A stretch of 64,000 nt of DNA, taken from the IMG/VR virus record IMGVR_UViG_3300042261_001117, positions 1 to 64,000 of that record; one strand, written 5' to 3'. Shown in pieces: positions 4,550 through 63,210 of this stretch. The position numbers were made by a program, and so were the translations under genes. Source of the DNA: a virus. Position 1 is the first letter of the stretch; each line of letters begins with the position of its first letter. Under the pieces are notes generated by a model. The model had not been told where the DNA came from, searched no databases, and saw only the letters and a program-made list of their open reading frames with translations.

Positions 4550-6655
4550 GTGGCTGATCGCACCATCCGAACAACGCTGAAGATCGACGCGGACGACAGC
4601 CGCCTCGTGGGGCTGGAGCGCCGCCTCGACTCGATCACGTCCAAGGCAGGCGCGGCGACGAACGCGGTGAGCGACGTCGGCGGCACGGGCGGTGGCGGAA
4701 CGAGCGGCGGAAGTGGCTCAGGAAGCGCGACGACTGGCGGGGTGGCGGTCGGTGATGGCGAGAAGCGCACTGTGCGGCCCACGCGCGAACCTGACGCGTC
4801 TGGTGGCGCATCCGGTGGCGGACCTGCGGGCGGTGGTGCGGCAGGGCGGACAGGCGGTGGCGGCGGCGCAGACCTGCCGATGACCGCGGGGTTCCTCGGG
4901 CGCATGTTCCGCGAGGGCGGGTGGCTGGCACGAACGCTCGGGCTCGATCCCACCGCAGTGCAGCCGGACATCCGACCGCCGGGCTCCGGTCCGGACGACT
5001 GGGGCTACTCCAAGAACGCCATGGCAAGGATCGATCGGATCGAGCGCGCACGTGCTCGACTGCTTGGCAGCGGAGGCGGCGCAGGTCGCGGCGCAGGCGG
5101 GCTCGCGGGGCTCGGGATCGCTGGAGCGCTTGGGTACCAGACGCTCAACACCGTGACGGAGTCGATCGCGGACCTGTACCGCGCCGACGTGCCCATGGCG
5201 CAGGGGCTCTACTCCGGCTCCGCGACGGCGGCTGCGCAGTCGGCTGTCCAGTACCAAGCGCAGCGGGAGATGGCGATCCGGCATGCGGGCATCGGCGGGA
5301 TCGGCGGCGCTGCATCGACCGTAGCCATGGGCGTCGGCGGTGCGTCGGTCGCTGGCGCGGCGGTGGCGGGTGCTGCGATCCCGGGCGTCGGCGTGGCGCT
5401 GCTGGCCATCGGAGCGCTGACGAAGTCGCTCACCGACCTCGCGAACGCGGCGGCAGACTCCAAGACGCAGGTCGAAGCCGCGAGGCGGTCTGCGGCGATC
5501 AGCCTGTTCGAGGAGATCCACGGTCGGCGTGTCGGGCTGGCGCAGAACGAGGCCAGCTTGATGGGGTTCGCGCGGAATGCAGCGGGCGCTGAGATGCTGC
5601 ATGGCAGGTTTGGCGGAGACGAAACCACCAGCCCGGTTGCACGTGCTGCGAAGCGGCTGTTGATGGACCCGAACGTGCTCGCCGGTCGGATGCGGTCGTT
5701 CATCGGCGCTGGCGCACAGGCGGAACACGATCCGTTCCGCGCTGCGGCGCTCGAGGTGCGCGACAAGGTCAGCATGGAGTCGCAGGCGCGCTACCTGCGG
5801 ACGTTCCAGCGCGGCGAGGGCGCGACCATCGGCGGCGGCGGCCCGCAGCAAGAGCAGGCCATGCTCGAGGGCGTGGTCAAGACGGCGTTCGACGCGGGGC
5901 TCACGAAGCACCGCATCGGCGACTACCTGGGAAGGATCGCGCAAACGAACGAGGCCATGGCAGATCGCGGGCTGATCGTCGACGAGCGAGTGGCAGAGCG
6001 GTCCAGACGCGGGCTGATCGGCGCTGGTCTGACCCCCATGCAAGCGCTCGGCGCGCAGACCAACGTGGGCGGTCTCATGCAGGAGGAAATGGGGTCGCTG
6101 GTGGATCTGCGGATGCCCATGTCGCGCGTGAAAGCGTTGATCCGTCAGCAGGCTCTGCGTCAGTTCGGCGGCGTCGACGAGGCCATCGCTGGCATGGAGA
6201 AGCTGAGCGGCGACCGGGACGCATCGCTGACGTTCCTTCGAAACGCTGGTGCTGGTCTCGACGCGACGCAACTCAAGCTGCTGATGTCGCAAGGCGCTGG
6301 CGTGTTCCCGTCGCTCGGCGGCAAGCTCGCAGCGTACACAGCAGGCGCCGATCGCGGAGCGGGCCCGTCCGGAGAAACGATGGTCGGACGTGCGCATCGA
6401 TTCCTGCGTCAATCGCTGGGCTTAGACACAACTGAAATGCTCAGTCAGAAGGTGGTGTCAGAGAACGTCAAGACGTTCGGGCTGACGCCGGAAAAGATCG
6501 CGGAGAACATGGACATGTTCAACAAGATCATACGCATGTCGGTCGAAAACCTGCGCGACTACCCGCCGGAGGAGATGTTCCGCACGCTACGTGAGGCCAT
6601 CGACACGTTCGCCGCGGACAGCCGGTCGCGCCCGCTCGACTACAGGCCGGAGTAG
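4550..6655 (+). CDS. Tape measure protein
   Basis: 701 aa, Ala/Gly-rich with hydrophobic central segment; canonical position after chaperones. Confidence 0.7.
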   Translation: MADRTIRTTLKIDADDSRLVGLERRLDSITSKAGAATNAVSDVGGTGGGGTSGGSGSGSATTGGVAVGDGEKRTVRPTREPDASGGASGGGPAGGGAAGRTGGGGGADLPMTAGFLGRMFREGGWLARTLGLDPTAVQPDIRPPGSGPDDWGYSKNAMARIDRIERARARLLGSGGGAGRGAGGLAGLGIAGALGYQTLNTVTESIADLYRADVPMAQGLYSGSATAAAQSAVQYQAQREMAIRHAGIGGIGGAASTVAMGVGGASVAGAAVAGAAIPGVGVALLAIGALTKSLTDLANAAADSKTQVEAARRSAAISLFEEIHGRRVGLAQNEASLMGFARNAAGAEMLHGRFGGDETTSPVARAAKRLLMDPNVLAGRMRSFIGAGAQAEHDPFRAAALEVRDKVSMESQARYLRTFQRGEGATIGGGGPQQEQAMLEGVVKTAFDAGLTKHRIGDYLGRIAQTNEAMADRGLIVDERVAERSRRGLIGAGLTPMQALGAQTNVGGLMQEEMGSLVDLRMPMSRVKALIRQQALRQFGGVDEAIAGMEKLSGDRDASLTFLRNAGAGLDATQLKLLMSQGAGVFPSLGGKLAAYTAGADRGAGPSGETMVGRAHRFLRQSLGLDTTEMLSQKVVSENVKTFGLTPEKIAENMDMFNKIIRMSVENLRDYPPEEMFRTLREAIDTFAADSRSRPLDYRPE

Positions 6656-20263: not shown

Positions 20264-20677
20264 ATGCAGATCAAGACCATCGCGCAGATCGTCGCGCTCG
20301 TGTTGTACTTCGCGGCGTGGCTGGCCAAGAAGTCGCTGGGGTGGGAGATCCCGCCTTCGGTGCTCGTGGCGGTGGGCGGGCTGCTCACAACGCTGGTGAT
20401 GCACTCGCAGCCAGTCAGCGGGACGTGGGGCCTGCGCGTCACGAAGCTGCTGGGCGTCGTGTTCGCGGTGGTGGCGGTGGCGTTCTCAGTGGCGCCGACC
20501 GAAACTGCCAGCGCGCTGAAGCTTTCGAATGACATCGTCTCCGTCGTGCCCGCGATCGACATCGCCGTTCCGCCTGCGTCGCTCCCCACGCAGGAACCCG
20601 TGGCAGAACCCCCGGCAGCCGACACCACCCCCTCGGATGCCGGGGGCGCCACGGATTCGTTCGACCTCGACCAGTAG
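20264..20677 (+). CDS. Holin-like membrane protein (about 3 TM)
   Basis: GGAGG SD; three hydrophobic stretches and a Pro/acidic tail. Confidence 0.45.
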   Translation: MQIKTIAQIVALVLYFAAWLAKKSLGWEIPPSVLVAVGGLLTTLVMHSQPVSGTWGLRVTKLLGVVFAVVAVAFSVAPTETASALKLSNDIVSVVPAIDIAVPPASLPTQEPVAEPPAADTTPSDAGGATDSFDLDQ

Positions 20678-20761
20678 CCGCTCGCAATACAAGTTGACAA
20701 CCAGCGCGATCCGCGCGAAGCTTTGCTCTGGCGGCACCCACGCCGCCGAAAGGAGCAGGCT

Positions 20762-35407: not shown

Positions 35408-35689
35408 ATGCGGATCGCGATTCTCTGCGTGCTGGTGGTGCTGGCTGCGTGCTCGCGCGGCAACTACTGCAAGGAAGCGAAGACCATCATGGACGACTGC
35501 GGCTTCGGGCCGTCGTCGGAATCGTCGACGGCGCTGCGGTCGGCGTGCGACGCCGGAGCGGCGGACGCGGTGATGCTCGCGAAGTGCTTGATCGTGGCGG
35601 ACCGCTACGAGCAGACGCGCGGGTGCTCGCAGATGCGGTTCATGACGTGCGTCGAACTGGTGTCGCGAGCACGATCCGGCAGGCTGTGA
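35408..35689 (+). CDS. Small Cys-rich lipoprotein
   Basis: MRIAILCVLVVLAA-C signal peptide with lipobox. Confidence 0.6.
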   Translation: MRIAILCVLVVLAACSRGNYCKEAKTIMDDCGFGPSSESSTALRSACDAGAADAVMLAKCLIVADRYEQTRGCSQMRFMTCVELVSRARSGRL

Positions 35690-35707
35690 TGGCCGGTCGA
35701 AACGGGC

Positions 35708-35737
35708 TTGACGGGAGCGGCGCGAACGGCGTAGCGT
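35708..35737 (+). promoter_or_regulatory. Promoter TTGACG-18-TAGCGT for the replication operon
   Basis: Intergenic, immediately before the structured leader. Confidence 0.5.
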
Positions 35738-35741
35738 GTTC

Positions 35742-35840
35742 GTGCAACCGGCTCTGTTCACCAATCAAGCTCTCGCGCCCCCCGGTGGTGGCGACTCTTC
35801 GGAGCCGGTTGCACCCACCACCGGGGGCCACGCGAGTTTT
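35742..35840 (+). ncRNA. Structured leader RNA with interleaved stems (attenuator/pseudoknot-like), copy 1
   Basis: Two perfect 13-bp pairings: 35742-35754/35802-35814 and 35779-35791/35815-35827; UUCG hairpin; ends in TTTT. Confidence 0.6.
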
Positions 35841-35872
35841 GTGCGCTGGGCGTAGCGTGGCGAGGAGTGCGC

Positions 35873-36985
35873 ATGGGCGGCACTAGCTGGGTACGCATGG
35901 ACGCAGCGTACGACGACCATCCGGACGTTCGGCGCGCTGGGCTTGAGGGTAGCGTGGTGTTTCAGGCGCTCGTGCGCAGATCGAAGCTGTTTGGCCTCGA
36001 CGGCATCGTCAGCAAGAAGTACCTCGACGTGGAGTACCTAGCGGACGTGCTGAAAGCTCCACAGGACTTCATCCAGCGCGGGCTGGTGGCGTGCTTGCGC
36101 GTTGGACTGATCCGCGACGGCGATGGCGGCGTGACGATACCAGGGTGGGATCGCTTCCAGAGTCCCGACACGTTGCGGAAGCAGCGCTACACGGAACGGC
36201 ACGGACGAGACGCAGCAGATGGTGCGCAGCAGGTTGATCCGTTCCTGTCCGTTCCAAGAACGGACGAGAACGGACGAGAACGGATTGGAACGGATTGTCC
36301 GTCTGACGTGACGGTACGTGACGAGACAGGACGTGACGAGACGCACGAGCACTGCGCGCGCGCGCGTACGCACGAGGATTCGACCCCAGCACCCGCCGCA
36401 CCGACCACGCCGCCGCCTGATCCCGCGCGGCTCGCTGCGATCCGAAACGAGATGGCCATGGCGGACGCGCAGCGAGAAGCCGAGAGCGGCGTGCGTGTGC
36501 GCCCACTTCGCGTCGATCCGGAGCGCGAGGCCCGTGACGCCGCGTGGGCGGAAGAGATGGCGCTAGCGGCCAACGTCGCGCACGACGACGGCAAGATCCT
36601 CTCGGTCTACCAGCACTGGCTCGACTCCGCGGGTTTGCCTCCGCGCTGCATGTGCCCCGACGACCTGTACATGGGCAAGACGTTCCGACTGCTGGTGCTG
36701 GAGCGGCTGAGAGACGGGCTGACCTACGACGACATGAAGCGGGCGATCACGTCGTGCCACGGAAGCAAGCGGCATCAGGAGCGCGGCGTGTCGGGGTGGG
36801 GCGCTATCCTGCGGTCGCTCTCGACGGTGCAGGAGTTCATGGCAATCGCCAACGCGAAGGCCAAGCCGCAGCAGCGATCGGGTAGGCTGTCTGACGAGGA
36901 ATTCGCGAAGCGGTACGAGGAGCGCAAGGCGGAGAAGGCGCGGAACGAGGCGCTGCTGGCACAACACGGTCGGGGTCCGAGATGA
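35873..36985 (+). CDS. Replication initiator (replisome organizer, lambda O-like)
   Basis: N-terminal 'WVRMDAAYDDHPDV...IPGWDRFQ'; internal iterons; followed by a loader-like gene. Confidence 0.7.
   Translation: MGGTSWVRMDAAYDDHPDVRRAGLEGSVVFQALVRRSKLFGLDGIVSKKYLDVEYLADVLKAPQDFIQRGLVACLRVGLIRDGDGGVTIPGWDRFQSPDTLRKQRYTERHGRDAADGAQQVDPFLSVPRTDENGRERIGTDCPSDVTVRDETGRDETHEHCARARTHEDSTPAPAAPTTPPPDPARLAAIRNEMAMADAQREAESGVRVRPLRVDPEREARDAAWAEEMALAANVAHDDGKILSVYQHWLDSAGLPPRCMCPDDLYMGKTFRLLVLERLRDGLTYDDMKRAITSCHGSKRHQERGVSGWGAILRSLSTVQEFMAIANAKAKPQQRSGRLSDEEFAKRYEERKAEKARNEALLAQHGRGPR
36191..36345. repeat. Iteron-like repeats, candidate replication origin
   Basis: GAACGGACGA x2 and GAACGGATTG x2 in tandem (36258-36297), inverted copies at 36238-36255, then GACGN 5-mers. 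Confidence 0.6.
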
Positions 36986-45568: not shown

Positions 45569-46890
45569 GCGAGCAGAAGTTGCTGAGCATCGACGAACTG
45601 GCAAGCGCTCCATGGAACCCACGGACCATCAGTGATGCGGCACTGAGTGGGCTCGGCGGTTCGATCAAGGCGTTCGGCGACCTCGCTGGGATCGTCTGGA
45701 ACGCTTCCAACGGGCAGTTGGTCTGTGGCCACCAGCGCATCAAGGTGCTGCGCGCCAAGGGTGCGACCATCGAGCACGACGAACGCGGGCCGTTCATCGT
45801 GGACCCGGAGACCGGCGAGCGCTTCGGAATCCGCGTGGTCGAGTGGTCGGAGGATCGCCACGTGGCAGCATGCATCGCGGCCAACAACACCGCGATCACC
45901 GGCGAGTTCACCGCGGACACACTCCCCATGCTCCAGTCGATCGCGGACGACGATCCCGCGCTGTTCGCTGGTGCGGGCTTCGCACCGCTGCTCGAAGCGC
46001 TCGGGATGCAGTTCTCGGACACGCGGAAGGCCGGGCAGAGCGATCCGGACCAGGACGTCGCGCCACCTGCGCCCGAGGAGACCATCACCAAGACGGGCGA
46101 CATCTGGCTGTGTGGGCCCCACCGCGTGGCGTGCGGCGACTCGCTGAAGGACGAAGACCTTGTGCGCCGCCTGTTCAACGGAGGGCTGGCGGACATGACC
46201 TTCACCGATCCGCCATACAATGTGAACTACGGCGAGACGATGAAAGACAAGCTTCGCGGGCCGAAGCACAAGAAGATCGCCAACGACAACCTCGGCGCGG
46301 ACTTCCCGGCGTTCCTGCTGGACGCGTGCAAGGTGATCATCGCGTGGACGAAGGGCGCGTGCTACGTCTGCATGTCGTCGTCGGAGTTGCACTCGCTGCA
46401 GAAGGCGTGGCTGGACGCCGGAGGGCACTGGTCGACGTTCATCATCTGGAAGAAGCACACGTTCACGATCGGCCACGCTGACTACCAACGGCAGTTCGAG
46501 CCGATCCTCTACGGATGGGGCGAGGGCACGAAGCACTTCTGGTGCGGGGCCCGGGACCAGGGCGACGTGTGGGAGATCGACAAGCCGAGCCGCAGCCCGC
46601 TGCACGCGACGACGAAACCGGTGGCGCTGGCGGAACGCGCGATCGTGAACTCCTCGAAGAGCCGCGACACGGTGTTCGAGCCATTCTGCGGGTCGGGCAG
46701 CACGCTGATCGCGTGCGAACGTACCGGGCGCATGGCGCGCACGTGCGAACTCGATCCCAGCTACGTGGACGCGCAGGTGGCGCGGTGGATGGCGTACTGC
46801 GGCGGGCAGGCGGTGCGCGAGTCGGACGGCTACAAGTTCCCGCTGGACGCTCCGGTGTTCAAAAAGGTCGCGGAGCAGAAGGATAAGTAA
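45565..46890 (+). CDS. ParB-like domain fused to N6/N4 DNA methyltransferase (DPPY)
   Basis: 'PWNPRTI...VCGHQRI'; 'FTDPPYNV'; 'HATTKP'; 'EPFCGSGST'. Confidence 0.9.
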   Translation: MSEQKLLSIDELASAPWNPRTISDAALSGLGGSIKAFGDLAGIVWNASNGQLVCGHQRIKVLRAKGATIEHDERGPFIVDPETGERFGIRVVEWSEDRHVAACIAANNTAITGEFTADTLPMLQSIADDDPALFAGAGFAPLLEALGMQFSDTRKAGQSDPDQDVAPPAPEETITKTGDIWLCGPHRVACGDSLKDEDLVRRLFNGGLADMTFTDPPYNVNYGETMKDKLRGPKHKKIANDNLGADFPAFLLDACKVIIAWTKGACYVCMSSSELHSLQKAWLDAGGHWSTFIIWKKHTFTIGHADYQRQFEPILYGWGEGTKHFWCGARDQGDVWEIDKPSRSPLHATTKPVALAERAIVNSSKSRDTVFEPFCGSGSTLIACERTGRMARTCELDPSYVDAQVARWMAYCGGQAVRESDGYKFPLDAPVFKKVAEQKDK

Positions 46891-46918
46891 GCTCTCGCGC
46901 ATCGGGTCACAATTCTTT

Positions 46919-46947
46919 TTGACAACGCGCGTGGCGCGGGCTACGCT
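46919..46947 (+). promoter_or_regulatory. Promoter TTGACA-17-TACGCT
   Basis: Consensus -35 with a T-rich upstream tract; intergenic. Confidence 0.6.
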
Positions 46948-46982
46948 CTCCATCGACAGCAGACCACCAGGGCGAGGTGGCG

Positions 46983-47480
46983 ATGGACCAGGACTTCCGC
47001 GGCAGCACCTACGATCCGAACCAGGACCGCGACCGCCTCATGAACTACACGCAGCGGGTGTTCTCGCTGCTGCTCGATGGTGCGTGGCACACGCCCGCGC
47101 AGTTGCGCGAGGTCGGCGGCGGTGAGTGGTCGCGGCGCGTGCGGAACCTCCGCGAGCCGCGCTTCGGGGGCTTCTCTGTCGACACCTCGCGCGACCCGGA
47201 CAAGCCGGGCAAGTGGCTTTACCGGCTGCTGGACGTGGACCAGATCTCGCAGGCTCAGATCGACGCGGTGATGCGCGGCGACGTGGACGACCGCAATCCG
47301 CTCGCGCCCAGCACGCAGAAGGACCGCGAGACGCGGCTGCGGAAGTGCATCAACCGCCGCGTGGGCCGCATGCCGGAGGACTGGCTGCGGATGCTCGAGC
47401 AGTGGATGACGCACGGGCTTCCGGTGGAGATGGCAAAGCGGCAGGCTGCGAGCGCGCAGCAGGCCGCGCTGAGGTTGTAG
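46983..47480 (+). CDS. Winged-HTH protein
   Basis: 'LLLDGAWHTPAQL...SRRVRNLR..RFGG..V...W.YRL'. Confidence 0.6.
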   Translation: MDQDFRGSTYDPNQDRDRLMNYTQRVFSLLLDGAWHTPAQLREVGGGEWSRRVRNLREPRFGGFSVDTSRDPDKPGKWLYRLLDVDQISQAQIDAVMRGDVDDRNPLAPSTQKDRETRLRKCINRRVGRMPEDWLRMLEQWMTHGLPVEMAKRQAASAQQAALRL

Positions 47481-47489
47481 GGGGTGACG

Positions 47490-47720
47490 ATGGACCGCGC
47501 ACCGGAGCCGTTGCTGGACGAGTACAAGGGCTTCAAGCTCAAGCACAACTGGCAGAACCCATCGCCCATGGGCTGGACGACGAAGGCCTACTACGACGGC
47601 GTCCTGATCACGCTGGACCGCGACGCGAACGATCCGCTGAAGTCGCAGGCGGGCGTGCTCATGGTGCTCGACACACTGTGCTACTGGGCGGACAACGAGC
47701 GGAAGCACAGGGAGAAGTAG
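47490..47720 (+). CDS. Hypothetical protein
   Basis: Packed ORF; alternative GTG start at 47484. Confidence 0.5.
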   Translation: MDRAPEPLLDEYKGFKLKHNWQNPSPMGWTTKAYYDGVLITLDRDANDPLKSQAGVLMVLDTLCYWADNERKHREK

Positions 47721-48023
47721 ATGCGCCTCCAGATCGAGATCCCCGACGAAGAACTGGCGCGGTCGATCGCGGCGAACCTACTGTCGCGGCGCGATGGCAG
47801 AGCGCTGCTAGACGACGTGCTTCGCCGCATCGGGCCAGCACTCGACGCCGCAGTGCTGAACGCCGCTCTCCCTCTGGTCGAACGCGCGACGCGCACGTCG
47901 GTTTCGCAGATCGTTGAAGTGCGCGCTCGGCGGATGATGGGTAAGGACCAGCCGCTCAAGACGGCTGTCGACGAAGCGGTGCGGAAGCGCGTCGAGCAGC
48001 TTCGGATCGGAGGTGGGCTGTGA
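47721..48023 (+). CDS. Hypothetical protein
   Basis: Packed ORF. Confidence 0.45.
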   Translation: MRLQIEIPDEELARSIAANLLSRRDGRALLDDVLRRIGPALDAAVLNAALPLVERATRTSVSQIVEVRARRMMGKDQPLKTAVDEAVRKRVEQLRIGGGL

Positions 48024-48682
48024 CCGAGTTCGTGAGCCCGCAGCACCTGCGCGACCTGTGGGACTGGTACGTGCGCGAGTGCCCCGACGTGAAGATCGAC
48101 GGCAACCAGATGACCACGCCGGAGGGGTGGGTGCTGGTGCGACCGCCGGAGCCCGTCATCCCCGTCGTCGAGAGCGACGCCATGCCGTTCGACGCGCTGC
48201 TGGCGATCTGTAGCGGTGGCCAGCCGGTGGGAGCGATCAAGAACCTCAAGTCGCCCAAGTTCGATCCGGAGACGGAAGCGGCGCTCGCCGCCATGGCGCG
48301 CGATGCCGACGAGCACTGCGACCGCACGGAACGACAGCGCTCCGCGGTGATGAGAGCGCTGTGGATGGAGTTCGGCGCGAACACGTGCACGCTCAACTAC
48401 CTCGGCGGCCATGACTGCGGGCGGTCGATCATGGTGACGCCCGGTGGTGAACTCGCGTTCGACACGAGCGGGAAGTACGCGCTGCGCCCGAAGATGACCA
48501 CGACCAGCCGACAGGTCTTTGCCATCGCGAAAACCGCGCTCGAAGTGTTCCCGCGAGCGGAGATCGTCTGGTCGCTCGAGTGGTCGATGTCGGCGTACGA
48601 GCGCCGCGGGTTCGAAGAGATGCACGAAGTGCAGATGCGCGACCAGTTGTTCGACGCGATCGGAACGGAGGACCCGAAGTGA
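48020..48682 (+). CDS. Hypothetical protein
   Basis: GTGA overlap, GGAGGT SD. Confidence 0.5.
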   Translation: MTEFVSPQHLRDLWDWYVRECPDVKIDGNQMTTPEGWVLVRPPEPVIPVVESDAMPFDALLAICSGGQPVGAIKNLKSPKFDPETEAALAAMARDADEHCDRTERQRSAVMRALWMEFGANTCTLNYLGGHDCGRSIMVTPGGELAFDTSGKYALRPKMTTTSRQVFAIAKTALEVFPRAEIVWSLEWSMSAYERRGFEEMHEVQMRDQLFDAIGTEDPK

Positions 48683-49164
48683 TCTCATCCTTCCTCGCGC
48701 TCCCGTCCGTCGCTCTGGCGTTGCTGCTGGCGCCGGACGCACGGGTGTCCACGTACCGCGCACTCGAGGTCGCGCTGGCGTGCGAGGCGTCGTGCCGCGG
48801 GACGCTGGTGCGCCCGGATGAGTGTGTAGCGCTCGCGTACGTCGAGACGCGGTTCAGACCGGAGCGCGTGAGCGCGAAGGGGTGCATTGGTGTCGTCCAG
48901 GTTTCGGTCTGCAACTTGCTGGTCGCAGGTCGTCGCGTGAACGCACCGGCAGCGGGGCCATGGGACGTCCACTGCATCGCTGGCGGGATCGATGCGGGTG
49001 TCCTGGCGGCAGATGCACTGAAACGCGCGCACGGGGCATTGTGGCCCCGATTTTACGGCTGTGGCACGAAGGCGGCGCGCAGGGGCGACAGAGCGTGTGT
49101 GCAGCACGAGATGCGCGTCTACCGCGCCATGAAGCGACTTGCTAGTACGGCGCCGGTGTCGTAA
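48679..49164 (+). CDS. Lytic transglycosylase (SLT-like) with hydrophobic N-terminus
   Basis: '[25 protein letters not shown]' matches the SLT E-S/T and GxMQ motifs. Confidence 0.65.
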
Positions 49165-49167
49165 AAT
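49139..49167 (+). promoter_or_regulatory. Promoter TTGCTA-17-TAAAAT for the HNH unit
   Basis: Near-consensus -10 overlapping the upstream stop codon. Confidence 0.6.
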
Positions 49168-49173
49168 GATCCC

Positions 49174-49283
49174 GCTTGTGACCGCTTGCTTCGGCAAGCA
49201 CGACAACTTGGTTCCTCACGGTGGCGGTGGGCATCTTCCCTTCGGGGCAAGCGGCACAAGCAACCACCGCCCCGTGGGGAGCC
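49174..49283 (+). ncRNA. Structured leader RNA with interleaved stems, copy 2
   Basis: 49174-49189/49247-49261 (15 bp, one bulge) and 49210-49230/49264-49283 (20 bp with G-U pairs, one bulge); two UUCG hairpins. Confidence 0.6.
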
Positions 49284-49300
49284 TCGCTTACGGTGCTGAA

Positions 49301-49966
49301 ATGCCACGAAAAGCGCTATATGGTGACGATCGCCTGGGCGCTATCATAAACATGATTGCAGTAAAGTCGATTGTTAAAGACGGATGTCTGATATACACTG
49401 GTTGTAAGGATGGTAGGTACCCATACGCGGAGGTGGATGGTCGCCATATTGCATTAAGCAGACTGATATACGCGATTGTTTTTGGCAACATACCGGATGG
49501 TATGTACGTATGCCATAGATGCGACAACAAGCGCTGTGTAAACCCGGATCACCTGTTCATTGGCACACCGGCAGACAACACGCACGACATGATGAACAAA
49601 GGGCGTCAAAGATTCGATTTGTCGCGTCCCGGGCGGGCGGCGGAGGTCGGGAATATAGGGTGGAGCGGAAAAACGACAAGGGGACAACGCATCGTTGAGT
49701 TATTACGCGACGGAGTTGAGCGAACAACGCGTAATGTTGCAGAGCATCTTGGGTGCGATGTGTCTGCGGCAAAGCAAAGTTTGAAACTAGAACAAGAACA
49801 TGGGAGAATCAATGTAAGGAAAGTCGCGCTTGTTACAATAAAAACCGGCGCAGTGCCAATATCACGCACAAAAAAACGCTATCGCGAGTCCAGTAGGCGC
49901 TTGGTTAGTATGTGGTCAATACACTGCAATACGCTTGCCATCCTACGACACCGGAAGGAGACCTGA
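49301..49966 (+). CDS. HNH homing endonuclease with C-terminal HTH-like domain
   Basis: '[33 protein letters not shown]'; markedly more AT-rich than the flanks. Confidence 0.9.
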
Positions 49967-49967
49967 C

Positions 49968-50306
49968 GTGGAGTGCACGCGCTGCGGGAACTGTTGCAAG
50001 ACCTACCCGTGCCATCTCTGGCTTTATCAGTGGACGATGGACGGGGGTTCACCGCCGAAAGCTCCGCACGCGTGTCCGGATCTCCGCCCGATGGACGACG
50101 GCACGTGGATCTGCGGCGTGCTGGAGAACGCGCGGTTCCACGTCCAGATTGGCATGCGACCCGGCGGCTGGGACGGGCTGGTCGCTCGGCTGCTGCTGGT
50201 CGGAGACGGCTGCACCGCGACGGATCGCGTGCGGCGCGGGGAGCTTCTGCGCGAGGTTCCCGCTGACACGTTGCGGGCGATGACGATCGAAAGGGACGAG
50301 CCATGA
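49968..50306 (+). CDS. YkgJ-like CxxCxxCC (Fe-S/Zn) protein
   Basis: 'ECTRCGNCC...CPDL...ICGV'; AAGGAG SD. Confidence 0.65.
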   Translation: MECTRCGNCCKTYPCHLWLYQWTMDGGSPPKAPHACPDLRPMDDGTWICGVLENARFHVQIGMRPGGWDGLVARLLLVGDGCTATDRVRRGELLREVPADTLRAMTIERDEP

Positions 50307-56816: not shown

Positions 56817-57466
56817 CGCTGGTGGTCGAGTACGACGATGCCGCTCCGATCGAAGTCGGGTACGGTACGGAGGTGGTCGTTCGCACGCCGAAGCGCTCGG
56901 CGGAAGGTGCGCTGCGGATCATCGAGGGCACCGGCAAGCTGGTGAGCGTCGAGTTCGGAGACGCGCTGCACGATGCGGATGACGACGAGTCGACGGGTGT
57001 CGGTGTGCGCAGAGTCGCCGCAGATGGCAACGTCACGGAGATGGATTTCGACGCGCCGGAGCGCGTTGTGGCGCTGTTCGTCCACTCGTTCTCCAAGCTG
57101 TTCGAACAGCATCCGACCGCAGAGAACTACGTGCAGTTGGAGGTCAGGCGCGCGGGCGAGGACGCAGGCTACATCGTGACGGTCCAGCGATCGGACAGGA
57201 AGTCGCCGCACGAACTGCGCGTCGCGGCGGAAGCGCAACGCGACGAAGCGGAGATCCTGCTGCGAGAGATGGTCGCGCAGCACTGCGCGGACGACGGCAC
57301 GATCCACGGGAGTCCGTACACGCTGCAGGCGTTCTGCCTGTCGACGAACGCTGACGCGCTCCAGTACCTCGTCGGACGCGGGCAGGCGGTCGAGGTGTAC
57401 GACGGGCTCGGACGCCAGTACTACGCGAGGTGGCCGGAGCCCGTGGCGGACGACGCGAAGGAGTAG
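56804..57466 (+). CDS. Hypothetical protein
   Basis: Overlapping start; GC3-rich codons. Confidence 0.5.
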   Translation: MPRLTLVVEYDDAAPIEVGYGTEVVVRTPKRSAEGALRIIEGTGKLVSVEFGDALHDADDDESTGVGVRRVAADGNVTEMDFDAPERVVALFVHSFSKLFEQHPTAENYVQLEVRRAGEDAGYIVTVQRSDRKSPHELRVAAEAQRDEAEILLREMVAQHCADDGTIHGSPYTLQAFCLSTNADALQYLVGRGQAVEVYDGLGRQYYARWPEPVADDAKE

Positions 57467-63117: not shown

Positions 63118-63190
63118 GGGCCAGTAGCTCAGTTGGGTGAGCGCCACCCTTGCAAGGTGGAGGTCGCCGGTTCAATCCCGGTCTGGTCCA
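63118..63190 (+). tRNA. tRNA-Ala (UGC)
   Basis: Acceptor GGGCCAG/CTGGTCC with G3:U70 and A73; anticodon arm CCACC-CT TGC AA-GGTGG; T-loop GGTTCAATCC; CCA not encoded. Confidence 0.95.
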
Positions 63191-63210
63191 CTGCGTTGGA
63201 GAGGTAATCG

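What the first reader, a model, noticed from the sequence alone, without database searches (positions are those of the whole stretch)
49139..49966. AT-rich HNH endonuclease with its own promoter and the same interleaved-stem RNA (second instance)
Seen: promoter TTGCTA-17-TAAAAT. a=GCTTGTGACCGCTTGC (49174-89) pairs with a'=GCAAGCGGCACAAGC (49247-61). b=GGTTCCTCACGGTGGCGGTGG (49210-30) pairs with b'=CCACCGCCCCGTGGGGAGCC (49264-83) using G-U pairs that work only on this strand. CCC-TTCG-GGG precedes a', and an alternative hairpin GCTTGC-TTCG-GCAAGC can sequester half of a. Topology, UUCG position and the GGTGG/CCACC core match the initiator leader although the stems differ in sequence. The ORF is compositionally foreign. 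Inference: a portable RNA module that limits dosage-sensitive DNA-acting genes. A less likely alternative is an RNA cofactor of the nuclease.
Basis: partly seen in the sequence, partly recalled or inferred. Interest (0 to 1): 0.75.

Follow-up and report, generated by a model that had tools for sequence, protein, structure and literature searches.

The report
Two-helix leader RNA before phage HNH gene
A lake phage starts two of its transcription units with a folded RNA leader made of two long crossing helices, and a foreign DNA-cutting (HNH) gene now sits behind one of them, most likely as a passenger using the phage's own control element.

Summary
At 49174-49283, starting 7 nt after a sigma-70-like promoter (TTGCTA-17-TAAAAT), lie two strong crossing stems: a:a' (15 bp) and b:b' (20 bp, two G-U pairs on the + strand only). 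A cUUCGg mini-hairpin abuts a'. The architecture matches 35742-35839 before the replication initiator.

Such pairs are rare in shuffles and in unrelated GC-rich DNA. No Rfam family matches.

A distant relative phage (L029/L032) carries a homolog of the initiator leader. Six of 26 base pairs changed on both sides there, 4 in a:a' and 2 in b:b', so both helices of that leader type are under selection.

The HNH_3 gene is real (221 aa, most likely from ATG 49301, not TTG 49139) and compositionally foreign (48.9% GC against 67.6%). The leader has 65.5% GC. No such leader precedes HNH homologs in 0 of 25 IMG/VR loci and 0 of 3 cultured phages.

My reading: this is a phage regulatory 5' leader that folds a:a' first and b:b' later, and the HNH cassette landed behind it. 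Output and mechanism are untested.

The scan has noted similar interleaved-stem leaders before HNH genes on other DNA: 32 unchecked notes in at least 28 genomes.

The parts
48679..49164 (+). Native upstream gene (161 aa, lytic-transglycosylase-like by eye). Its last codons hold the -35 box and its stop codon lies in the -10 box.
   Evidence: ORF and sequence. The GTG start overlaps the previous stop (GTGA). 37% identical homolog in relative G001 at 5105-5431. No Pfam hit at E <= 0.01; the SLT-like motif is my reading.
49139..49167 (+). Sigma-70-like promoter TTGCTA-17-TAAAAT. The predicted start is near 49174, the first base of a.
   Evidence: 9 of 12 matches. The start site is inferred from spacing, not measured.
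49174..49189 (+). Strand a, at the predicted 5' end of the RNA. Its 3' half can also form a local GCTTGC-TTCG-GCAAGC hairpin (49184-49199).
49210..49230 (+). Strand b (C-rich 5' half, GGCGGTGG at its 3' end)
49238..49247 (+). Mini-hairpin CCC-UUCG-GGG, whose 3' strand runs into a'
   Evidence: The same cUUCGg hairpin position occurs in instance 1 and in L032.
49247..49261 (+). Strand a' (pairs with a; 15 bp plus one bulge)
   Evidence: helix alone -24.3 kcal/mol
49264..49283 (+). Strand b' (pairs with b; 20 bp plus one bulge; two U-G pairs), 2 nt after a'
   Evidence: helix alone -41.1 kcal/mol
49301..49966 (+). HNH_3 endonuclease gene (221 aa), compositionally foreign. The HNH motif is at 49454-49582.
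   Evidence: PF13392 4.8e-11 and PF05551 1.5e-5. phrog_1872 8e-27.. GC 48.9%. 502 GenBank phage records with homologs, all but one below 60% identity.
49968..50306 (+). First native gene after the HNH (112 aa, Cys-rich, orphan). Its GGAGA ribosome-binding site lies inside the last codons of the HNH frame.
   Evidence: Only itself found among 5.8 billion proteins.
35708..35839 (+). Instance 1, before the initiator gene (ATG 35873). Promoter TTGACG-18-TAGCGT, a 35742-35754, b 35772-35791, CTC-TTCG-GAG 35795-35804, a' 35802-35814, b' 35815-35836, then TTTT.
   Evidence: Homolog with compensatory changes in L029/L032.

Best explanation
The stretch 49174-49283 is the 5' leader RNA of a transcription unit of the phage itself, made from a host-type promoter. 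It is the second copy of a leader type whose first copy heads the replication-initiator operon.

The leader has two long helices that cross each other: a:a', which pairs the very 5' end of the RNA, and b:b'. a' sits in the apical loop of b:b', directly next to b'.

Because a' is made before b', the nascent RNA first closes a:a'. The complete leader is more stable with b:b' plus the cUUCGg mini-hairpin. Two helices of 13-15 and 20 bp joined by only 0-2 nt can hardly both form in full. So the leader works as a sequential two-state element.

In one state the 5' end is locked in a duplex. In the other, 30-36 nt of A/C-rich 5' tail are single-stranded. I infer that this sets the post-transcriptional fate of the downstream message: 5'-end accessibility to RNases, processing of the 20-bp helix, and ribosome access just downstream.

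The HNH_3 gene is an ordinary free-standing homing-type endonuclease of foreign composition. It has landed between this leader and the first native gene (49968), so it rides on the phage's promoter and leader.

Shown: the stems, their rarity, the covariation of both helices in the homologous initiator leader, the fold order under a nested-structure energy model, and the foreign composition and family of the HNH.

Inferred: the start site, that the two helices exclude each other in vivo, the regulatory output, and the insertion history.
For: - Stems and controls.
- Same architecture at 35742-35839 behind a promoter.
- Homolog of instance 1 in two IMG/VR contigs of a distant relative, again right after a TTGACG-18-TATCTT promoter and at the head of a replication module (small Zn-ribbon ORF, initiator-like protein, primase-like protein).
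- In the window-versus-L032 alignment, 51 of 52 cells pair. 6 of 26 pairs changed on both sides (4 in a:a', 2 in b:b'), against 0 in all six slid controls; 7 of 500 shuffles reach this.
- The leader is one of only 10 nucleotide-level matches between the two phages, while the initiator proteins behind it are barely alignable (E 0.004 over 24 residues).
- In 3 of 3 leaders the MFE of the transcript up to a' (and a'+8) is a:a', and it switches to b:b' once b' is complete. Constrained energies are -53.3 (a:a') against -61.5 (b:b') for instance 2, and -56.3 against -62.7 for instance 1.
- G-U pairs work only on the + strand in instance 2 (b:b') and in L032 (a:a').
- Native rather than HNH-borne:
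  - Leader GC is 65.5% against 48.9% for the HNH and 67.3% for leader 1.
  - The -35 box lies inside the upstream gene.
  - 0 of 25 and 0 of 3 HNH homolog loci have such a leader.
  - The relative has the leader type but no HNH_3.
- T4 precedent: passages of PMC2988022 seen say that seven free-standing endonucleases are promoter-less cassettes that harness upstream phage promoters.
Against: - No HNH-less relative of this locus was found, so the insertion history is not shown.
- In relative G001 the homolog of the upstream gene is followed directly by another gene, with no leader. So leader plus HNH could both be additions here.
- Covariation was measured on instance 1 and one relative only (two distinct sequences). 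Instance 2 itself has no known homolog.
- A covariance model of instance 1 + L032 finds instance 2 at only 17.6 bits (E 0.043, rank 6 in 160 kb). That is no better than motif-selected unrelated loci, which reach 15-24 bits. So 'same family' rests on architecture and three short shared motifs.
- GC of stems is high in any structured RNA, so the composition argument is soft.
- The fold-order result comes from an energy model that cannot represent pseudoknots. A partly or fully formed pseudoknot is not excluded.
- For instance 1 and L032 the - strand folds at least as well (z -4.08 and -4.77 against -2.84 and -3.49).
- No consistent ribosome-binding-site sequestration was found across the three leaders.
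- The U-run after b' in instance 1 is not conserved in L032 or in instance 2.
- No RNA data: all four runs laid were contigs, and the one RNA run did not cover the leader.
- Earlier unchecked notes of this scan describe promoter-plus-crossing-stem leaders in front of HNH genes in many other phages. That raises the prior for an HNH-linked module.
Confidence: 0.5

Rival explanations
1. One reading: promoter, crossing-stem leader and HNH gene form one portable expression cassette. The RNA keeps production of a dosage-sensitive nuclease low, for example by burying the translation start or shortening the mRNA's life. The initiator leader is a second use of the same module.
For: - The HNH start codon lies only 17 nt after b', with a weak ribosome-binding site.
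- With b held single-stranded, b' pairs with the ACGG of that site (forced a:a' fold).
- In relative G001 the equivalent locus has neither leader nor HNH.
- T4-type homing endonuclease genes are known to combine their own promoters with RNA hairpins that restrain translation (PMC2988022, passages seen).
- The scan's own unchecked notes report similar leaders before HNH genes in other phages (leads only).
Against: - 0 of 25 IMG/VR loci and 0 of 3 cultured-phage loci with HNH homologs have such a leader. These homologs are distant, 29-63% identical.
- The leader's composition is that of the phage, and the -35 box is inside the native upstream gene.
- The only homolog of the leader type heads a replication operon in a phage without HNH_3.
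- The start codon and GGTG are not inside either long stem in the MFE folds.
Confidence: 0.2
2. Both helices form together as an elongated pseudoknot. a' and b' form one continuous strand, and the 5' triphosphate end is buried at the junction. The knot acts as one stable structure: a 5' stabiliser against 5'-end-dependent RNases, or an RNA that modifies the transcribing polymerase as the put RNAs of phage HK022 do. It is not a switch.
For: - Both helices covary in the homologous leader, as expected if both are needed at once.
- a' abuts b' in 3 of 3 leaders, which favours coaxial stacking.
- The linker lengths (12-20 nt and 10-17 nt) could span the helices, by my distance estimate, which is inference.
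- Two copies sit behind two promoters in a phage whose genes all face one way. This recalls putL/putR, which I cite from recall only; the two papers listed were not read.
Against: - Winding about two turns of b:b' inside a loop already closed by a:a' needs threading of the 3' end. That is kinetically unlikely for a growing transcript (inference).
- Known natural pseudoknot stems are much shorter (recall).
- Few intrinsic terminators are predicted downstream that would call for antitermination (my own crude scan).
- put RNAs are two adjacent stem-loops, not crossing helices (recall).
Confidence: 0.15
3. b:b' is an RNase III-type processing site or a leaky terminator between operons, and a:a' merely modulates it. 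The element would then be an ordinary intergenic processing or termination signal, not a specific switch.
For: - b:b' is 19-20 bp with one internal loop or bulge in 3 of 3 leaders, the size class of RNase III substrates (substrate size from recall).
- Instance 1 has TTTTGTG right after b'.
Against: - The U-run is absent in L032 and in instance 2.
- The tool's terminator scan reports none on the + strand at either place.
- A plain processing site does not explain selection on a:a'.
- No cleavage data exist.
Confidence: 0.1
4. The repeats act on DNA, as protein-binding inverted repeats around a promoter, or are chance.
For: - Instance 1 and L032 fold as well on the - strand.
- Half-sites of palindromic operators can also change in step.
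Against: - G-U-only pairs on the + strand.
- Half-site spacings of 23-57 bp.
- A conserved cUUCGg tetraloop hairpin.
- Rarity in shuffles and in natural GC-rich DNA.
Confidence: 0.05

Closest known systems
[quoted passage not shown]
   Same: An HNH gene sits in an intergenic gap of a phage, behind a promoter and a structured RNA. The review PMC2988022 (passages seen) says that seven T4 endonucleases use upstream phage promoters and that others have hairpins that hide the ribosome-binding site.
   Different: There the structure is a single hairpin that contains the ribosome-binding site, with a late promoter nested in it. Here two long crossing helices lie wholly upstream of the start region, and the same design precedes a replication gene.
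Metastable or bistable mRNA leaders under sequential-folding control (hok mRNA of plasmid R1 type; terminator/antiterminator attenuators)
   Same: An early-made helix forms first, and a later, more stable alternative follows. Both alternatives are kept by compensatory change.
   Different: The two helices here share no nucleotides. They exclude each other, if at all, by geometry. No conserved U-tract, leader peptide or known ligand or antisense partner was found.
putL/putR antiterminator RNAs of phage HK022 and nutL/nutR of lambda
   Same: There are two structure-similar, sequence-different copies, each just behind an early-type promoter of a phage.
   Different: put is two adjacent stem-loops (recall). 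No Rfam match here. Action on RNA polymerase is not testable with these tools.
HEARO/IscB omega-RNA (HNH-associated guide RNA)
   Same: A structured RNA lies next to a gene with an HNH domain.
   Different: No Rfam hit for any family at E <= 5-10. The protein is a 221-aa HNH_3 enzyme without a RuvC domain. The same RNA design occurs without any HNH gene.

Membership tests
HNH_3 homing-type endonuclease (Pfam PF13392) | Profile match above the curated cut-off, with the Cys/His/Asn core (CH-C-DN...C-NP-HL...N) | tested here: met
   42.5 bits against a cut-off of 24.8, residues 52-94. 45.1 bits in the six-frame search. The core [25 protein letters not shown] was read in the translation.
Free-standing homing endonuclease (mobile cassette) | Presence/absence polymorphism between related phages, and a cleavage site in the endonuclease-less allele | not testable with these tools
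   No close relative of the locus was found. Three DNA runs hold the same sequence, with no clean HNH-less joint. Only foreign composition and absence of HNH_3 from relative G001 speak for it.
Any Rfam 15 RNA family (including group I intron, HEARO, C4 antisense RNA, HDV-like ribozymes, riboswitches) | Covariance-model score at or above the gathering threshold | tested here: not met
   Only a tRNA in the whole window. Nothing credible at E <= 5-10 in 49100-49350, 48900-50200 and 35680-35900.
Intrinsic terminator / terminator-antiterminator attenuator | G+C-rich hairpin followed directly by a U-tract, conserved among members | tested here: not met
   After b': TCGCTTACGG in instance 2, CTTGCGTG in L032, and TTTTGTG only in instance 1. 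The tool's scan finds no + strand terminator at either place.
RBS-sequestering hairpin of T4-type endonuclease genes | Ribosome-binding site and/or start codon paired inside the regulatory stem | tested here: not met
   GGTG 49292-49295 and ATG 49301 lie 9-18 nt beyond b'. In the MFE folds they sit in a separate weak local hairpin. An alternative b'-to-ACGG pairing appears only when b is held open.
H-type pseudoknot (both stems formed at once) | Two crossing stems with loops long enough to span them; simultaneous protection in probing | tested here: inconclusive
   The crossing order and covariation of both stems are shown. The a'-b' linker is 0-2 nt and the stems are 13-15 and about 20 bp. 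No pseudoknot-capable energy model or probing data was available.
Same RNA family as the initiator leader (35742-35839 and L029/L032) | Significant match to a model built from the other members; shared architecture | tested here: inconclusive
   The architecture is shared, as are the motifs GGYGGTGG, YCTTCGGRG and CCACCRCC. But the CM score is 17.6 bits, E 0.043, within the range of motif-selected unrelated loci.

The most novel reading that the evidence does not exclude
Promoter-proximal leaders built from two long crossing helices, with the 5'-terminal strand pairing into the apical loop of a long hairpin, may be a widespread and uncatalogued class of phage riboregulator. They would work by sequential folding or as a true extended knot that hides the 5' end. 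Free-standing HNH genes would then either carry them or preferentially settle behind them. This phage would hold two diverged copies, one of them captured by, or brought in with, an HNH gene.
Probability: 0.2. Interest if true: 0.75.

Novelty: new variant of a known kind. Interest (0 to 1): 0.5.

Why it matters
If the reading holds, this adds an uncatalogued structured 5' leader, kept by compensatory change between distant phages, to the small set of RNA-only control elements known at phage operon heads.

It also gives a concrete case of how a selfish nuclease gene plugs into a host phage's regulatory circuit instead of bringing its own.

The design may also interest RNA-folding work and synthetic biology: two long helices that share no bases yet probably cannot coexist, with the transcript's first base in one of them.

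The HNH gene itself is ordinary.

Tried and rejected
- **Group I intron or HEARO-type RNA around the HNH.** No Rfam support, and the stems are far too long. Rejected.

- **Target-site duplication.** An 11-nt direct repeat (GGCGTAGCGTG) flanks instance 1. The downstream copy is not kept in L032. Rejected as a mobile-element mark.

- **Leader as coding sequence.** The frame from ATG 49166 is open into the HNH frame. However, that ATG lies in the -10 box. In the instance 1 / L032 comparison the indels shift the frame across b, and the changes are pair-wise compensatory, not codon-wise. Rejected.

- **Trans targets of a, a', b, b' in the 89-kb contig.** None at <= 2-4 mismatches.

- **Consistent sequestration of the ribosome-binding site by freed a or b.** No common logic in the three leaders.

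- **Close relatives of the locus.**
  - The search for related loci with the downstream, initiator, phrog_22261-like, 48020 and upstream proteins found none.
  - The downstream protein has no homolog.
  - The initiator has one homolog (P0003, 42% identity, Logan only), whose contig could not be fetched.

- **blastn of both leaders against GenBank phages.** Only chance matches of 19-32 nt.

- **Motif scan of metagenome contigs.** All those I inspected were coding or plain hairpins, for example a membrane-protein gene family. None scored above 24.4 bits with the model.

- **Motif scan of genome contigs.** All 4 hits were chance coding matches.

- **Second viral motif scan and a scan with the L032 initiator-like protein.** Both returned only L029/L032.

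- **Sequencing runs.** No RNA holder is listed. Three DNA runs (two studies, lake or freshwater) hold the stretch, with 0 other letters across 48759-50143. A part without cover by a second strain (49089-50102), and low-likeness joints (46889 to 49974; 50030 back to 48688), could not be interpreted.

- **Third crossing-stem pair at contig 87733-87822.** It lies inside a 265-aa ORF with no homolog in G001. Left open.

- **Supplementary files of papers.** Not consulted (closed). They do not bear on the claims made.
Full report
**Where we are.** The window is the first 64 kb of an 89,276-nt IMG/VR viral contig (CheckV completeness 59%). It has 67.6% GC, and by a GC3-based gene call essentially all its genes are on the + strand. 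Near-identical DNA occurs in three lake or freshwater DNA runs from two studies.

**The observation.**
- TTGCTA (49139-44), a 17-nt spacer and TAAAAT (49162-67) form a 9-of-12 sigma-70-like promoter.
- The -35 box lies in the last codons of the native upstream gene (48679-49164). The -10 box covers that gene's stop codon.
- Seven bases later strand a (49174-89) begins. It pairs with a' (49247-61) over 15 bp with one bulge.
- b (49210-30) pairs with b' (49264-83) over 20 bp with one bulge. Two of these are U-G pairs that exist only on the + strand.
- A CCC-UUCG-GGG mini-hairpin runs into a'. A local GCUUGC-UUCG-GCAAGC hairpin can hold the 3' half of a.
- The + strand folds better than shuffles (z -4.54, 0 of 200), and better than the - strand does against its own shuffles (z -2.48).

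**Is it more than chance?** I wrote a scanner for pairs of crossing helices.
- With both helices at score >= 35, the contig has 3 on the + strand and 1 on the - strand. Twenty-five block-wise dinucleotide shuffles gave 4 in total.
- Requiring a' within 4 nt of b', unrelated natural GC-rich DNA (657 kb, both strands) gave one pair at >= 35.
- The two top pairs in the contig are this element (scores 45 and 49) and the one at 35742-35839 (39 and 37). Both sit in intergenic gaps right behind promoter-like sites.
- A third pair (87733-87822, scores 37 and 37) lies inside a 265-aa ORF and stays unexplained.

**The other instance and a relative.**
- At 35708-35839 the order is the same: TTGACG-18-TAGCGT, a (13 nt), b, CTC-UUCG-GAG, a', b', then the initiator gene.
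- Three short motifs are shared with instance 2: GGYGGTGG at the end of b, YCUUCGGRG, and CCACCRCC at the start of b'.
- A pattern made from them found 4 stretches in IMG/VR. Two (L030, L031) lack a:a'. The other two (L029 and L032) are the same sequence in contigs of 70.8 and 20.3 kb, and are a clear homolog of instance 1.
- That homolog has a TTGACG-18-TATCTT promoter and a different a/a' sequence. It keeps b, the mini-hairpin and b'. It is followed by a small Zn-ribbon ORF, an initiator-like protein and a primase-like protein.
- This phage (G001) is a distant relative. Only 10 nucleotide-level matches at 67-75% identity link the two contigs, and the leader is one of them. The proteins behind the leaders are barely alignable.
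- On the MAFFT alignment of the two, the named structure pairs 51 of 52 cells. 6 of 26 pairs changed on both sides: 4 in a:a', one of them to U-G, and 2 in b:b'. There are none in any of six slid controls, and 7 of 500 shuffles reach this value.
- So both helices of the initiator-leader type are kept by selection.
- Limits: this is two distinct sequences and concerns instance 1. Instance 2 has no known homolog.

**Is instance 2 the same family?**
- A covariance model of instance 1 + L032 (b:b' and the mini-hairpin as pairs) finds instance 2 at 17.6 bits, E 0.043. That is sixth in 160 kb, behind one unrelated hit.
- Unrelated loci that merely contain the search motif score 14.7-24.4 bits.
- The case for 'same kind' therefore rests on architecture, on position behind a promoter with a at the predicted start, and on the shared motifs. 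It does not rest on significant similarity.

**What it is not.**
- No Rfam 15 family matches at the gathering threshold in the window, apart from tRNA-Ala.
- None matches credibly at E <= 5-10 around either leader or across the whole HNH region. That rules out a group I intron, HEARO and other catalogued families.
- It is not a conserved intrinsic terminator. Only instance 1 has a U-run after b', and the scan tool reports no + strand terminator.
- The arms have no other targets in the contig.

**How the leader folds.** Under the nested-structure energy model the two states are close.
- Instance 2: -53.3 kcal/mol (a:a' forced) against -61.5 (b:b').
- Instance 1: -56.3 against -62.7.

In all three leaders the MFE of the growing transcript is the a:a' state until b' is complete, and then it becomes the b:b' state. 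The two helices share no bases. If they exclude each other, they do so by geometry: a' sits in the apical loop of b:b', 0-2 nt from b'. About two helical turns of b:b' would have to wind inside a loop already closed by a 13-15-bp helix. That exclusion is my inference, and no tool here can model pseudoknots. A partial or complete elongated knot remains possible (rival 2).

**The HNH gene.**
- From ATG 49301 the ORF gives 221 aa, with HNH_3 (4.8e-11) and the His-Me finger loop. It also matches phage endonuclease PHROGs (8e-27).
- The Cys/His/Asn core is intact.
- It has homologs in 502 GenBank phage records, all but one below 60% identity. It is the only HNH_3 in the contig, and G001 and G002 have none.
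- GC is 48.9% and GC3 0.30-0.75, against 0.78-0.98 for the phage's genes.
- The composition rises again about 25 nt before its stop. There the ribosome-binding site of the next native gene (GTG 49968) lies inside the HNH frame.
- The TTG 49139 start of the reported ORF is the -35 box.

**Whose leader is it?** For a native leader with the HNH as passenger:
- Leader GC is 65.5% (leader 1: 67.3%).
- The promoter is embedded in the native upstream gene.
- The same design occurs before a native gene and, in the relative, without any HNH.
- 0 of 25 IMG/VR HNH-homolog loci have compact crossing stems upstream of the HNH, even at relaxed thresholds.
- In Ralstonia phage GP4 and Xanthomonas phages CP2 and FoX5 the homologous genes abut or overlap the preceding gene.
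- T4 offers the precedent of promoter-less endonuclease cassettes that use upstream phage promoters (PMC2988022, passages seen).

Against:
- No HNH-less allele was found.
- In G001 the homolog of the upstream gene is followed directly by another gene, with no leader.
- Stems are GC-rich in any genome.
- The scan's earlier, unchecked notes list promoter-plus-crossing-stem leaders before HNH genes in other phages: 32 notes in at least 28 genomes hold the search words. I treat these as leads that raise the prior of the rival, not as evidence.

I put the passenger reading at roughly 0.6 given that the RNA is real. I put the whole best explanation at 0.5.

**Mechanism, committed.** A host-type promoter starts the RNA at a. 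a:a' closes first and locks the 5' end. With time, or with help, the RNA reaches the more stable b:b' state. That state frees a 30-36-nt A/C-rich 5' tail and presents a 20-bp helix. This change sets how long and how well the downstream message is used. Which state is 'on' is unknown. No consistent masking of the ribosome-binding site was found.

Shown: the stems, their rarity, covariation in the sister leader, and the fold order in the model. Inferred: the start site, the exclusion, the output and the insertion history.

**Comparison with the known.**
- It works most like sequentially folding or bistable mRNA leaders.
- At the gene level it is like the regulatory embedding of T4-type free-standing endonucleases.
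- It is a member of no catalogued RNA family.
- It fails the defining feature of terminator attenuators (a conserved U-tract) and of the T4 RBS-hairpins (RBS inside the stem).

I rate it a new variant of a known kind, of moderate interest. The RNA is real and uncatalogued, but its function is untested, its family is tiny in the collections searched, and the HNH gene is ordinary.

Noticed in passing
contig 87733-87822 (outside the window; L003:4733-4822): A third pair of compact crossing stems (16 and 15 bp, G-U rich, a'-b' gap of 2 nt, no UUCG hairpin). It lies in codons 7-36 of a 265-aa ORF (87715-88512, GC3 0.86) with no homolog in G001. It could be chance or an intragenic structure.
   Followed up: partly
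window 36237-36295: Iteron-like repeats (ATCCGTTCC / GAACGGA units in direct and inverted order) inside the initiator gene. This is probably the replication origin, as in lambda O.
   Followed up: no
window 35729-35739 and 35849-35859: An 11-nt direct repeat GGCGTAGCGTG brackets instance 1. The downstream copy is not conserved in L032, so it is probably not a target-site duplication.
   Followed up: yes
window 48625-48834 and joints 46889>49974, 50030>48688: Contigs of the DNA runs show a second strain with SNPs and small indels in the upstream gene. They also show low-likeness joints that suggest a relative with a different gene order around this locus. Depth from the second strain is missing over 49089-50102.
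   Followed up: partly
window 63118-63191: tRNA-Ala(TGC), conserved at 74% identity in the distant relative G001 (57174-57255).
   Followed up: no
L031:3627-3669 (- strand) and L040/L049: Unrelated viral and metagenome contigs have long GGTGG...CCACC hairpins with a cUUCGg mini-hairpin in the apical loop but no a:a' partner. The b:b'-plus-mini-hairpin part may be a more common hairpin type.
   Followed up: partly
window 20595-20689 (- strand): The leader model scores 20.1 bits here (E 0.011), above instance 2, on the strand without genes. Not examined.
   Followed up: no
window 48679-49164 and L153:5030-5467: The upstream gene reads like a small lytic transglycosylase with an N-terminal hydrophobic segment (motif VETRF...S..G..G..Q by eye). 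Pfam gave no hit at E <= 0.01. G001 has a 37% identical homolog.
   Followed up: partly
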